Below the pieces are notes generated by a model that saw nothing but the letters and a program-made list of their open reading frames with translations, had not been told where the DNA came from and did not search any database. This document shows, piece after piece, positions 41,569 to 57,422 of a stretch of 64,000 bases of DNA. Source of the stretch: Escherichia coli (GTDB lineage: Bacteria; Pseudomonadota; Gammaproteobacteria; Enterobacterales; Enterobacteriaceae); NCBI RefSeq assembly GCF_013122565.1, contig NZ_CP053258.1. The stretch is one strand, 5' to 3'. Every line of letters starts with the position of its first letter. Position 1 is the stretch's first letter. Both the position numbers and the translations under genes were made by a program.

Positions 41569-43452
41569 ATGGATCCACGGCTACTGGAATACTACAACCG
41601 CGAACTGAGCTATCTGCGGGAAACGGGAGCCGAATTTGCCGCCCGTCATCCCAAAGTCGCCGCCCGGCTGGGCATGCAGGGAACGGATATTGCCGATCCG
41701 TATGTGGAGCGGATGGTCGAAGCCTTCAGCTTCCTGACCGCCCGCACGCAGCTAAAAATTGACGCTGAATTCCCTCGTTTCACCCAGCGCCTGCTGGAAG
41801 TGGTCAGCCCCAATTACGTCACACCCACGCCCTCAATGAGCGTGGCGCAGTTGCATCCCGATACGGAAGAAGGCGATCTGGCAAAAGGATTTACCGTCCC
41901 GCGCGACACGGCCTTTTTCTCCGCCATTCCGGAAGGCGAAAGCACTGCCTGCCAGTTTCGCAGCAGCCAGGATGTAACGCTGTGGCCGCTCGCCATCGAA
42001 GAGGCGCGACTGACCGCCGCGCCGCCGGATATGCCTGCCCTGCACCGCTACCTGCCGGCCAACATTCACGTCGCCGGGGCGCTGCGTATTACCCTGCGCA
42101 CCTTTGGTGAACTAACGTTCAGTCAGCTTGCCGGACTGGACAGGCTGCCGTTTTATCTCTGCGGCGAGGAGCGTACGGCCTCACACCTGTTCGAACTTCT
42201 ACATACCAGCGCCATCGCGACCCTGGCTGGCATTCCGGGACATTTTGACGGCGCGTTGGATGTGAATCTGCAACAGCCCGTTATGTACGAAGGCCTGGAG
42301 CCGGATCAGGGGCTGCTGCCGCTGGCGTGGAACGTGTTTCACGGTCATAACCTGCTGCATGAATATTTTGCCTGTCCGGAACGCTTCTATTTTTTCACCC
42401 CGACAGGCCTGTCTGCCGGATTACAGAAAATTGACGGTGGCGTGGCGGAGATTGTTATCCTGCTGAACCGCCTGCCGCCGGACTGGCTGATCCACCAGAC
42501 AAATACGGCACAGTTCAGCCTGTTCTGTACCCCGGTTATCAACCTGTTTCCCCGCGTCACCGCCCGGATCGATGTCACGCACAGCACGACGGAACAGCAT
42601 CTGGTGGTGGACAGAACCCATCCGCTGGATTATGAGGTGTTCTCGGTCCAGGAAGTGGAAGGGCTGGAAACCGACACCACACGGAAGATGGCCTTTCGCC
42701 CGCTCTACCACACCCGCAATAACGATGAAGGCAATCACGGGCGTTATTTTTCCCTGCGCCGGGAGCCGCGCCGCTTATCAGAAAACGCCCGCCGTTACGG
42801 TACCCGTACTCCCTATACGGGATCAGAAGTGTTCCTGTCGCTGGTTGACCAGTATGAAGCGCCGTACCCGGAAAATCTGCGCCACATCACCATCACGGCC
42901 ATGATCACTAACCGCGATCTGCCCTGTCTTATTGCCCGCAATGGCCGGGACGATCTAACCGTGGATGCGGCCATCCCGGTGGCGGGCGTAGGGCTTATCC
43001 GCCCGCCACGCTCGCCGCAGCCCCCGCTGGCTGAACGTGAGATGGCATGGCGGTTGATCCGCCAGTTATCTTTTAATTATCTGCCGCTGGCCGATCTGGA
43101 TCACCGTACCGGCGGCCAGGCGTTGCGAGATCTGCTGAACCTGTTTATTCCTGCTCATGACAGTCCGCAATCGCGCCAGGTGCGCAGCCTGATTGGTTGT
43201 AAAACGACCCCGGTCACCCGCCGTCTGCCCGGTTCCGGACTACTGGTCTATGGGCGTGGCGTCAGTTGTGAACTGACGGTGGATGAAGAAGGTTTTTCCG
43301 GCATCAGTCCGTATCTGTTCGGCCTGGTGCTGGAACACTATATCGCCCGCCATGTTTCCATTAATACCTTCTCGCAGATGACGCTGCACAGCATGCAGCG
43401 TGGCAAAATTATGACCTGGCCTGTCAGGGCGGGACAGCGGGGAAGCGTATGA
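41569..43452 (+). CDS. tssF: T6SS baseplate protein TssF
   Basis: 627 aa; N-terminus MDPRLLEYYNRELSYLRETGAEFAARHPKVAARLG typical of TssF. Confidence 0.9.
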   Translation: MDPRLLEYYNRELSYLRETGAEFAARHPKVAARLGMQGTDIADPYVERMVEAFSFLTARTQLKIDAEFPRFTQRLLEVVSPNYVTPTPSMSVAQLHPDTEEGDLAKGFTVPRDTAFFSAIPEGESTACQFRSSQDVTLWPLAIEEARLTAAPPDMPALHRYLPANIHVAGALRITLRTFGELTFSQLAGLDRLPFYLCGEERTASHLFELLHTSAIATLAGIPGHFDGALDVNLQQPVMYEGLEPDQGLLPLAWNVFHGHNLLHEYFACPERFYFFTPTGLSAGLQKIDGGVAEIVILLNRLPPDWLIHQTNTAQFSLFCTPVINLFPRVTARIDVTHSTTEQHLVVDRTHPLDYEVFSVQEVEGLETDTTRKMAFRPLYHTRNNDEGNHGRYFSLRREPRRLSENARRYGTRTPYTGSEVFLSLVDQYEAPYPENLRHITITAMITNRDLPCLIARNGRDDLTVDAAIPVAGVGLIRPPRSPQPPLAEREMAWRLIRQLSFNYLPLADLDHRTGGQALRDLLNLFIPAHDSPQSRQVRSLIGCKTTPVTRRLPGSGLLVYGRGVSCELTVDEEGFSGISPYLFGLVLEHYIARHVSINTFSQMTLHSMQRGKIMTWPVRAGQRGSV

Positions 43453-53692: not shown

Positions 53693-53854
53693 AATATGCC
53701 TCTTTTAATGCTATTTTCGTTAACTGAGGTGATTATGGGCTTCAGACTGTTGCGGAAAAAGAGCGTAAAACGCAGAGGATTTTTGCGATTCTGGCAATAA
53801 TAGATATCCAGACGAAAAAAAACCTCGAGCATTAACTCGAGGCTTCTTAATAAG

Positions 53855-53931
53855 TGGCGGAACGGACGGGACTCGAACCCGCGACCCCCTGCGTGACAGG
53901 CAGGTATTCTAACCGACTGAACTACCGCTCC
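53855..53931 (-). tRNA. aspU: tRNA-Asp (GUC)
   Basis: Identical 77 nt tRNA-Asp sequence, downstream of 5S rRNA. Confidence 0.97.
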
Positions 53932-54122
53932 ACCGAATTCTTTTACAACCACCGGTTTTATGACCGGCTTACTGCTTAATTTGATGCCTGGCAGTTTATG
54001 AATCACTTCGTGATTCACCCTTCGGGCCGTTGCTTCGCAACGTTCAAAAGCTTTCGCTTTTGTCCTACTCTCTTATCGAGTAGTGAACTGCCTTAAAGGT
54101 CAGTGCCATTCTTCGTAATTTG

Positions 54123-54242
54123 ATGCCTGGCAGTTCCCTACTCTCGCATGGGGAGACCCCACACTACCATCGGCGCTACGGCGTTTCACTTCTGAGTTCG
54201 GCATGGGGTCAGGTGGGACCACCGCGCTAAGGCCGCCAGGCA
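54123..54242 (-). rRNA. rrfH: 5S ribosomal RNA
   Basis: 120 nt match to E. coli 5S rRNA (reverse complement). Confidence 0.95.
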
Positions 54243-54335: not shown

Positions 54336-57239
<2,904 letters not shown>

Positions 57240-57422
57240 TCACAACCCGAAGATGTTTCTTTCGACTCATCATCGTGTTGCGAAAATTTGAGAGACTCAC
57301 GAACAACTCTCGTTGTTCAGTGTTTCAATTTTCAGCTTGATCCAGATTTTTAAAGAGCAAAACTTCGCAGTGAACCTTTGCAGGTACACTCTGAAGTATT
57401 TTTTATTTAATCACTACAGAGA

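What the first reader, a model, noticed from the sequence alone, without database searches (positions are those of the whole stretch)
53975..54005. Short 5S-like fragment downstream of rrfH
The sequence tgatgcctggcagtt, matching the start of the 5S gene in reverse complement, recurs about 125 bp downstream of the intact 5S gene, possibly a remnant of a second 5S copy or a terminator region.
Basis: seen in the sequence. Interest (0 to 1): 0.15.

Follow-up and report, generated by a model that had tools for sequence, protein, structure and literature searches.

The report
tRNA-linked repeat downstream of 5S gene
The short 5S-like fragment is the usual end-piece of a known small repeat element (a "tRNA-linked repeat" of the RtT/RrB family) that sits between the 5S rRNA gene and tRNA-Asp in about a tenth of E. 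coli strains; it is real but ordinary, and it is neither a decayed second 5S gene nor a terminator.

Summary
An exact 20-nt direct repeat lies at 53977-53996 and 54116-54135, 139 nt apart, with none expected by chance. On the transcribed (minus) strand it is the last 13 nt of 5S rRNA (the 3' end, not the start) plus 7 nt of trailer.

The two copies bound a 139-bp segment that is missing from K-12, where the rrfH-aspU spacer is 52 nt rather than 191 nt. The segment is present in 563 of 5426 complete E. coli genomes, including 55989, O104:H4 and O121:H19, and is unannotated there.

The segment belongs to the tRNA-linked repeat (TLR) family, which includes Rfam RtT and the rrnA/B/D sRNAs RrA/RrB/RrF. 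The published hallmark of that family is a 3' end identical to the 3' end of the upstream tRNA or rRNA gene. I confirmed that hallmark in 118 of 127 testable elements from many Gammaproteobacteria.

This copy is a terminator-less subtype with one GGA motif, against five in RrB.

Most likely mechanism (inferred): the duplicated 5S end and RNase E site let a roughly 139-nt structured RNA be cut out of the rrnH precursor, leaving the tRNA-Asp leader unchanged.

Verdict: a new member of a known kind, of low interest.

The parts
54123..54242 (-). rrfH, the intact 5S rRNA gene (120 nt); its last 13 nt are the source of the repeat
   Evidence: Rfam 5S_rRNA hit of 93.2 bits at 54125-54240. The 120-nt sequence TGCCTGGCGG...CCAGGCAT was extracted.
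54116..54135 (-). Repeat copy 1: AACTGCCAGGCAT (5S 3' end) plus CAAATTA (trailer, containing the position of the known RNase E cut 3 nt after 5S)
   Evidence: The RNase E site 3 nt after 5S is described in PMC8144298.
53981..54119 (-). Predicted TLR RNA, 139 nt if cut at the equivalent CAA|AUUA site in both repeat copies (about 144 nt if the 3' end lies as mapped for RrB). It corresponds to the 139-bp segment absent from K-12.
   Evidence: Three-way alignment with K-12 and FORC_069 shows a clean 139-bp indel. Rfam RtT hit of 29.8 bits at 53979-54108. MFE -51.1 kcal/mol, z = -7.2.
54078..54092 (-). 5' arm GGCAGTTCACTACTC. It is the inverted complement (14 of 15) of the 5S 3' region at 54129-54143, and of the two 5S-derived pieces inside the element. 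It forms the closing helix (GGCAG/CUGCC) and hairpin 1.
   Evidence: the repeat finder pair I1. The cmscan alignment places it in the outer RtT helix. MFE structure.
54064..54072 (-). 5S-like island GAGAGTAGG (identical to 5S 54137-54145); 3' strand of hairpin 1 (54065-54083)
   Evidence: The 9-mer has only two occurrences in the window against 0.15 expected. Coordinates.
53997..54063 (-). Core cassette: hairpin 2 (54045-54062), hairpin 3 CGTTGCGAAGCAACG (54028-54042), hairpin 3b GCCCGAAGGGT (54017-54027) and hairpin 4 (53999-54017)
   Evidence: Coordinates. The core pattern is shared with 163 elements in 120 loci. A flanking hairpin is present in 149 (5' side) and 164 (3' side) of 168 elements, with 89 and 90 distinct sequences. 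Compensatory changes in hairpin 4.
53977..53996 (-). Repeat copy 2 (the finding): AACTGCCAGGCAT plus CAAATTA, the hallmark 3' end of the TLR. It is the 3' strand of the closing helix and carries a duplicated RNase E-site context.
   Evidence: The hallmark is described in PMC8144298 and was found in 118 of 127 elements.
53932..53980 (-). tRNA-Asp 5' leader, identical to the K-12 leader
   Evidence: alignment; K-12 spacer is 52 nt.
53855..53931 (-). aspU, tRNA-Asp(GUC), the distal gene of rrnH
   Evidence: ARAGORN; Rfam tRNA hit of 67.7 bits.
53817..53848 (-). Hairpin plus T-run after aspU: the only terminator-like site in the region, and so the likely end of the operon
   Evidence: Inverted repeat I2; terminator scan.

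Best explanation
The fragment is the 3'-terminal hallmark repeat of a tRNA-linked repeat (TLR; the RtT/RrB family). This 139-bp element sits between rrfH and aspU in a minority of E. coli strains.

Shown:
- The element carries the family's conserved core (hairpins around CGTTGC..GCAACGGCCCGNAGGG).
- It ends with a 20-nt copy of the 5S 3' end plus trailer.
- It contains no terminator.
- It is a precise presence/absence polymorphism relative to K-12.

Inferred:
- The element is co-transcribed with rrnH at the full operon rate, because aspU lies downstream of it.
- It folds into a multi-hairpin structure whose closing helix uses the duplicated CUGCC.
- The duplicated 5S end and trailer re-create the RNase E context found just after 5S. 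Cleavage after both copies would release 5S, a structured RNA of about 139 nt, and a tRNA-Asp precursor with exactly the leader seen in strains lacking the element.
- The 20-bp direct repeats also make the element easy to lose by slippage or by gene conversion from rrnC, and possible to gain by recombination. This would explain the polymorphism.

Whether the released RNA has any function beyond being a processed spacer is unknown. It lacks most of the GGA motifs implicated in CsrA binding by RrB.
For: - Exact 20-nt repeat with none expected by chance.
- The operon is on the minus strand, in the order 5S, element, tRNA-Asp.
- Rfam RtT hit over the full model at 29.8 bits, E = 7e-4, with GGCAG/CUGCC in the outer helix.
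- Homology to the rrnD and rrnB T1-T2 regions and to the RtT element after proK.
- The published family hallmark is 18-19 bp identical to the 3' end of the upstream tRNA/rRNA gene. The RrB 5' end maps 3 nt after 5S at the RNase E site, its 3' end maps just after the repeat, and the authors propose that RNase E recognises the repeat (PMC8144298).
- My own survey found that 118 of 127 elements with an upstream tRNA or 5S gene repeat that gene's 3' end, mostly 18-19 nt.
- Full-length homologue in Superficieibacter between 5S and tRNA-Thr, 93% identical over 146 nt.
- Strong predicted fold, z = -7.2, and flanking hairpins conserved in position with about 90 different sequences.
- Clean 139-bp indel against K-12 with identical flanks.
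- Present in 563 of 5426 genomes.
- No terminator between 5S and aspU.
Against: - The score is below Rfam's RtT gathering threshold (29.8 against 45). However, the accepted TLR RrB gives no RtT hit at all at E<=1, so the threshold is not informative for 5S-linked members.
- No expression or cleavage data exist for this copy.
- The mapped RrB 3' end lies about 8 nt after GGCAU rather than 3 nt, so the two cleavage positions may not be strictly equivalent.
- My test for host-specific complementarity of the closing helix gave only a small excess over other-host controls (7.63 against 6.88 of 9).
Confidence: 0.8

Rival explanations
1. Decayed remnant of a second 5S rRNA gene, as in rrnD, which carries rrfD-thrV-rrfF. 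On this reading only the last roughly 20 nt are still recognisable.
For: The fragment is identical to the 5S 3' end. A second 9-nt 5S-identical island (GAGAGTAGG) lies upstream of it. Tandem 5S genes do occur in rrnD.
Against: The 5S covariance model finds nothing in the spacer, even at E<=10. The sequence between the two 5S-like pieces is the TLR core, which is shared with elements downstream of tRNA genes. The 7-nt trailer after 5S is duplicated as well, which a decaying internal gene copy would not explain. The same architecture recurs at tRNA genes, using their own 3' ends.
Confidence: 0.04
2. Target-site duplication or att-site scar. On this reading a small mobile or integrative element inserted at the 5S 3' end, duplicating 20 bp, and the repeat has no RNA-level role.
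For: It is a precise 139-bp presence/absence polymorphism bounded by 20-bp direct repeats. The same core is found next to many different host genes, always with that host's own 3' end, which implies the core has moved between hosts. A recombinant allele exists in strain AR_0019.
Against: The element has no coding capacity: the ORFs are spurious overlaps with RNA genes. 20 bp is long for a transposon target duplication. The carrier alleles differ from the window by up to about 1.6% (98.4-99.5% identity), so this is not a very recent event. The repeat falls where the RrB ends were mapped and is used in the predicted closing helix. This reading is compatible with the best explanation as an account of origin rather than of function.
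Confidence: 0.12
3. Part of the rrnH transcription terminator region, as with T1-T2 of rrnB.
For: Homologous elements in rrnA/B/D lie between the T1 and T2 terminators.
Against: There is no terminator-like hairpin with a T-run between 5S and aspU. The T1 hairpin is replaced by unrelated sequence. aspU lies downstream and has no promoter-like site of its own in the scan, so transcription must pass through the element.
Confidence: 0.03
4. Chance repeat or assembly artefact.
For: None.
Against: 0 of 100 shuffles gave any match. The same allele is present in 563 independent complete genomes.
Confidence: 0.01

Closest known systems
RrA / RrB / RrF: TLRs between T1 and T2 of E. coli rrnA, rrnB and rrnD (Stenum et al. 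2021, PMC8144298)
   Same: They lie directly downstream of a 5S gene. They share the core (GAACGTTGCGAAGCAACGGCCCG.AGGGTG) and the GAGTAGGAC motif. They end with AACTGCCAGGCATCAAAT(TA), a copy of the 5S 3' end plus trailer. Hairpins 2 and 4 are in the same positions, with compensatory sequence differences.
   Different: This copy has no T1 hairpin in front and no T2 behind. It sits inside the operon, ahead of tRNA-Asp, so it should be transcribed at the full operon rate rather than by T1 read-through. Its loops are GAAA, GAA and CGAAG rather than GGA-containing, giving 1 GGA against 5. It is 139 nt rather than 173 nt. It is polymorphic within the species and absent from K-12.
RtT RNA / tyrT 178-bp repeats and other tRNA-linked TLRs (Rfam RF00391; Egan and Landy 1978, Rudd 1999, both as cited in PMC8144298)
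   Same: Same overall plan: a 5' arm, hairpins, the core, then the last 18-20 nt of the upstream stable-RNA gene. The hairpin loop sequences are closer to this group than RrB's are. The full-length alignment to the RtT model scores 29.8 bits, whereas RrB gives no hit.
   Different: The host gene is 5S rather than a tRNA, so the terminal repeat and the complementary 5' arm are 5S-derived. The score is below the Rfam gathering threshold, whereas tyrT and proK copies score 101-138 bits.
Superficieibacter electus 5S-TLR-tRNA-Thr spacer (L029), the Phytobacter massiliensis rrn-end TLR (L082) and the contig-end TLR of a GenBank record titled E. coli SCPM-O-B-8794 (L112)
   Same: These are the same terminator-less subtype over the full length: 93-97% identical, including the 5' arm and the GAGAGTAGG island.
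   Different: The element is followed by tRNA-Thr in L029 and by a T2-like terminator in L082 and L112, rather than by the tRNA-Asp leader.
3'ETS-leuZ and other sRNAs cut from stable-RNA precursors by RNase E
   Same: A spacer-derived RNA released by processing of a tRNA/rRNA transcript (background given in PMC8144298).
   Different: No sequence relationship, and no base-pairing target is known or predicted here.

Membership tests
tRNA-linked repeat (TLR) / RtT family | Lies immediately downstream of, and in the same orientation as, a tRNA or rRNA gene within its operon | tested here: met
   The element at 53977-54122 lies directly after rrfH and before aspU, all on the minus strand.
tRNA-linked repeat (TLR) / RtT family | The 3' end carries about 18-19 bp identical to the 3' end of the upstream tRNA/rRNA gene (hallmark stated in PMC8144298) | tested here: met
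   20-nt exact repeat made of 13 nt of 5S 3' end plus a 7-nt trailer. The same feature occurs in 118 of 127 surveyed elements.
tRNA-linked repeat (TLR) / RtT family | Conserved core sequence with flanking hairpins | tested here: met
   The core CGTTGCGAAGCAACGGCCCGAAGGG lies at 54018-54042 and is shared with 163 elements. Hairpins 2 and 4 are present. Alignment.
tRNA-linked repeat (TLR) / RtT family | Reaches the Rfam RF00391 gathering score (45 bits) | tested here: not met
   29.8 bits, E = 7e-4 over the full model. The accepted 5S-linked TLR RrB gives no hit at E<=1, while tyrT and proK copies score 101-138 bits. The model is therefore tuned to tRNA-linked members, and this failure does not exclude membership.
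tRNA-linked repeat (TLR) / RtT family | Transcribed with the operon and processed to a discrete RNA | not testable with these tools
   This needs a Northern blot, RACE or RNA-seq in a carrier strain.
RrA/RrB/RrF sRNAs (rrn dual-terminator TLRs) | [quoted passage not shown] | tested here: not met
   No terminator-like site lies between 5S and aspU. The T1 hairpin sequence is absent.
RrA/RrB/RrF sRNAs (rrn dual-terminator TLRs) | Several GGA motifs in loops (proposed CsrA binding sites) | tested here: not met
   1 GGA in the 139-nt element against 5 in the 173-nt RrB.
RrA/RrB/RrF sRNAs (rrn dual-terminator TLRs) | More than 98% identity among members | tested here: not met
   Only a 33-nt stretch matches rrnD at 97%. 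The left half and both hairpin stems differ.
5S rRNA gene or pseudogene | Similarity to the 5S sequence and structure model beyond a short terminal stretch | tested here: not met
   Only the intact gene is found by RF00001 at E<=10. The 5S-identical pieces are 13 nt and 9 nt.

The most novel reading that the evidence does not exclude
TLRs are, or were, mobile cassettes that copy themselves to the 3' ends of stable-RNA genes, each time interrupting a partial copy of the host's last 23-28 nt. For 5S the interrupted copy is GAGAGUAGG|core|AACUGCCAGGCAU. For tRNAs it is the T-arm 5' half, then the core, then the T-arm 3' half through to CCA.

On this reading the rrnH presence/absence polymorphism, bounded by 20-bp repeats, is a natural footprint of such gain and loss. 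Because this copy has no T1 terminator in front of it, carrier lineages such as 55989, O104:H4, O121:H19 and O111:H8 would make a distinct, very abundant sRNA tied to the growth rate, which K-12 lacks.
Probability: 0.12. Interest if true: 0.5.

Novelty: new member of a known kind. Interest (0 to 1): 0.18.

Why it matters
It matters only a little. The finding adds an unannotated, strain-variable member to a family that has been known since 1978 and whose function is still unclear.

Three practical points follow:
- RefSeq annotation misses 5S-linked TLRs, because the Rfam RtT model is tuned to the tRNA-linked ones.
- Carrier strains, among them well-known pathogens, should transcribe a TLR at the full rRNA-operon rate. 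That makes them a convenient natural test of whether TLR RNAs do anything.
- The precise 139-bp indel with 20-bp repeats is a clean natural allele pair for asking what the duplicated 3' end is for: an RNase E processing signal or a recombination scar.

Tried and rejected
- **Old primary papers.** Bosl and Kersten 1991 and Sekiya 1980 are not held by DOI. The family description therefore rests on Stenum et al. 2021 and on my own survey. The first literature search, on RtT/tyrT, gave nothing useful.
- **Partial gene copy test.** I tested whether the 12 nt of the host gene just 5' of the repeat recur in the element. The result was not discriminating, because GGTTCGA is universal in tRNAs (own host 7.97 against other hosts 7.73 of 12). 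I replaced it with a T-stem-specific table.
- **Closing-helix test.** The test for host-specific complementarity of the closing helix showed only a weak excess, so I do not rely on it.
- **Family-wide alignment.** MAFFT put hairpin 2 out of register between subtypes, with 29% of cells paired. I used per-element hairpin detection instead.
- **L112 arrangement.** I searched for the arrangement seen in L112 (this subtype followed by a T2-like terminator) among complete E. coli genomes. No genome matched at 80% coverage or more.
- **Coding potential.** The ORFs across the spacer all overlap RNA genes and are spurious.

Full report
**Context.** The finding lies at the distal end of an E. coli rrnH operon read on the minus strand.
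- 23S rRNA ends at 54336.
- 5S rRNA (rrfH) occupies 54123-54242.
- tRNA-Asp (aspU) occupies 53855-53931.
- dkgB starts at about 53693 (read directly from the sequence).

The same gene order is annotated in E. coli FORC_069 and in K-12.

**Checking the observation.** The string is real and is not a chance match.
- TAATTTGATGCCTGGCAGTT occurs exactly twice in the 64-kb window, at 53977-53996 and 54116-54135, 139 nt apart.
- No match appeared in 100 shuffles, even with three mismatches allowed.
- On the RNA strand the sequence is AACUGCCAGGCAU followed by CAAAUUA. These are the last 13 nt of 5S and the first 7 nt of its 3' trailer.
- Beyond this the 5S model finds nothing in the spacer.
- There is, however, a second 5S-identical 9-mer, GAGAGTAGG, at 54064-54072. 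It occurs only there and in the 5S gene across the whole window.

**What the surrounding sequence is.** The two repeat copies bound a 139-bp segment that is absent from K-12 MG1655.
- The rrfH-aspU spacer is 52 nt in K-12 and 191 nt here.
- The flanks are otherwise identical, including the whole tRNA-Asp leader.
- The long allele is present in 563 of 5426 complete E. coli genomes, always at rrnH. Carriers include 55989, the O104:H4 outbreak strains, O121:H19 and O111:H8.
- No feature is annotated over it in those records.
- Carrier alleles are 98.4-99.5% identical to the window, so the allele is not brand new.
- To my knowledge the named carriers are phylogroup B1. I did not test this.

**Identity of the segment.** Distant BLAST of its unique 119 nt hit three things:
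- the 'RtT sRNA' annotated after proK;
- the region after the second 5S gene of rrnD;
- a variant rrnH spacer in strain AR_0019.

Rfam's RtT model (RF00391) aligns over its full length to 53979-54108 at 29.8 bits, E = 7e-4. The rrnD and rrnB regions are the well-known T1-T2 inter-terminator sequences. Like the window element, they end with AACTGCCAG(G/A)CATCAAAT. The proK element ends with a copy of the tRNA-Pro 3' end and its trailer.

**The family has a name.** These are tRNA-linked repeats (TLRs). Stenum et al. 2021 (PMC8144298) summarise the following:
- There are 22 TLRs at ten K-12 loci, citing Egan and Landy 1978 and Rudd 1999.
- The rrnA/B/D copies are sRNAs named RrA, RrB and RrF.
- The RrB 5' end lies 3 nt after 5S, at the RNase E site, and its 3' end lies just after the repeat.
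- These sRNAs bind Hfq and CsrA in vitro.
- The authors suggest the repeat is an RNase E recognition element.

**My own survey.** I scanned one genome per species for the core pattern CGTTGCN{2,5}GCAACGNCCCGNAGGG.
They came from Enterobacterales, Orbales and other Gammaproteobacteria.
- 127 cores had a same-strand tRNA or 5S gene within 1.5 kb upstream. Of these, 118 repeat at least 10 nt of that gene's 3' end just after the core, and mostly 18-19 nt.
- The host genes were tRNA-Pro, -Lys, -Arg and -Tyr, and 5S.

The window element therefore meets the family's defining features. It misses the Rfam gathering score. But RrB, an accepted member, gives no RtT hit at all, while tyrT and proK copies score 101-138 bits. 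That threshold is therefore uninformative for 5S-linked members.

**Subtype.** The window element differs from RrA/B/F in four ways:
- It has no T1 hairpin in front of it and no T2 terminator after it.
- The only terminator-like site in the region follows aspU.
- Its hairpin loops are GAAA, GAA and CGAAG rather than GGA-containing, giving one GGA against five in RrB.
- Its left part is different.

Full-length homologues of this terminator-less subtype exist elsewhere:
- between 5S and tRNA-Thr in Superficieibacter electus (93% identity over 146 nt);
- followed by a T2-like terminator at contig ends in Phytobacter massiliensis and in a GenBank record titled E. coli SCPM-O-B-8794.

Rahnella has an intermediate form that includes a T1 hairpin. 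Strain AR_0019 carries a unique chimera at rrnH, made of a T1 hairpin and the right half of this element. That shows recombination between TLR types.

**Structure.**
- The 140-nt RNA folds to -51.1 kcal/mol, with z = -7.2 against shuffles. It forms five hairpins closed by a helix that uses the duplicated CUGCC. The RtT model alignment places GGCAG/CUGCC in its outer helix.
- Across 168 core-bearing elements, 164 have a hairpin just 3' of the core (90 distinct sequences) and 149 have one just 5' of it (89 distinct sequences).
- On a 47-sequence alignment, hairpin 4 shows many two-sided changes. For example, one pair appears as GC 14, CG 12 and UA 10.
- Hairpins 3 and 3b were fixed by the search pattern and say nothing either way. 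Hairpin 2 was misaligned between subtypes in that alignment.

**Anatomy of the 5S-derived parts.**
- In 5S, GAGAGUAGG and AACUGCCAGGCAU are 1 nt apart.
- In the element they are separated by the 67-nt hairpin cassette.
- The 5' arm GGCAGUUCACUACUC is the inverted complement of both pieces, and hence 14 of 15 complementary to the 5S 3' region itself.
- Long tRNA-linked TLRs are analogous. They carry a T-arm 5' half before the core whose discriminating base tracks the host: Pro GAGG 30 of 31, Tyr AAGG 21 of 24, Lys CAGG 8 of 14. Short Arg and Lys subtypes lack this piece.

This suggests that TLRs are partial copies of the host gene's 3' end interrupted by a shared cassette. That is an inference about origin, not a demonstrated mechanism.

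**Mechanism (inferred).**
- aspU lies downstream and has no promoter-like site of its own in the scan. The element must therefore be transcribed with rrnH, without the roughly 87% T1 block reported for rrnB.
- The duplicated 5S end and trailer re-create the sequence context of the RNase E cut 3 nt after 5S.
- Cutting at both copies would yield pre-5S, an RNA of about 139 nt (about 144 nt if the 3' end lies as mapped for RrB), and a tRNA-Asp precursor identical to the one in strains lacking the element.
- The 20-bp repeats also provide a route to precise loss, by slippage or by gene conversion from rrnC, and to gain by recombination.
- I could not determine the polarity of the polymorphism.

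**Verdict.** But the fragment is neither a 5S pseudogene nor a terminator. It is the hallmark end of a known repeat family, here in a terminator-less, strain-variable and unannotated copy. It is a new member of a known kind, of low interest.

Noticed in passing
L003:1421-1635 (E. coli AR_0019, rrnH): This is a chimeric rrfH-aspU spacer. An rrnD-type T1 terminator hairpin and left half are joined to the right half of the window-type TLR, upstream of tRNA-Asp. Among 5426 genomes it is the only one that matches at full length. It implies recombination between TLR subtypes, and it places a strong terminator ahead of aspU.
   Followed up: partly
L008, L052, L063, L069, L072-L074, L094, L113, L117 (Stenotrophomonas, Pseudomonas, Brenneria, Alloalcanivorax/Alcanivorax, Marinobacter): An RrB-like module (A-rich hairpin with a CGGGAG loop, then AACGTTGC..GCAACGGCCCG.AGGG, then a GC-rich hairpin, then ATAAAA) occurs with no tRNA or 5S gene detected upstream. 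In L113 it is in tandem. It may be a free-standing intergenic repeat related to the TLR core.
   Followed up: no
tRNA-linked TLRs in L010-L126; window 54064-54072: Long TLRs carry, before the core, a copy of the host's T-stem 5' strand plus TTCGA, and this is host-specific. The element therefore looks like the host's 3' part split in the T-loop by the core. The 5S-linked copy has the analogous GAGAGTAGG island. Short Arg and Lys subtypes lack this piece.
   Followed up: partly
window 53984-54070 (-): There is a weak match (24.6 bits against a gathering score of 39.8) to Rfam RF02902, Aggregatibacter sRNA 22. It covers the core hairpins. That Pasteurellaceae sRNA family may be a TLR relative (also seen in L003).
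   Followed up: no
window 54211 (5S position 32 from the 3' end of the + strand read; 'CCTTAGCG'): rrfH here and in FORC_069 reads GGCGGCCTTAGCG where K-12 rrfH reads GGCGGCCGTAGCG. The T variant is also seen in the first 5S gene of O157 rrnD. This is ordinary rrn microheterogeneity.
   Followed up: no
window 54054 region (CCTTTAAGGCAG): The window differs from every full-length E. coli match (best identity 99.5%) by at least one base. Against FORC_069, the one full-length match I aligned base by base, the single difference is an A in the window where FORC_069 has G (CCTTTGAGGCAG). Superficieibacter L029 and L112 also have G there. The base lies in a predicted hairpin loop.
   Followed up: partly
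window 43235-43328 (+): ARAGORN calls a 94-nt 'tRNA-His' here. The Rfam tRNA model does not report it at the gathering threshold. It is probably a false positive or a tRNA-like fragment.
   Followed up: no
window 57247-57355 (-): Rfam StyR-44 hit (121.9 bits) in the leader just upstream of 23S rRNA, a usual feature of enterobacterial rrn operons.
   Followed up: no
L002:1569-1660 (E. coli, downstream of proK): After the annotated RtT sRNA, the tRNA-Pro 3' end, its terminator and the first roughly 60 nt of the TLR are repeated again as a partial second unit. A REP/naRNA4 element follows.
   Followed up: no
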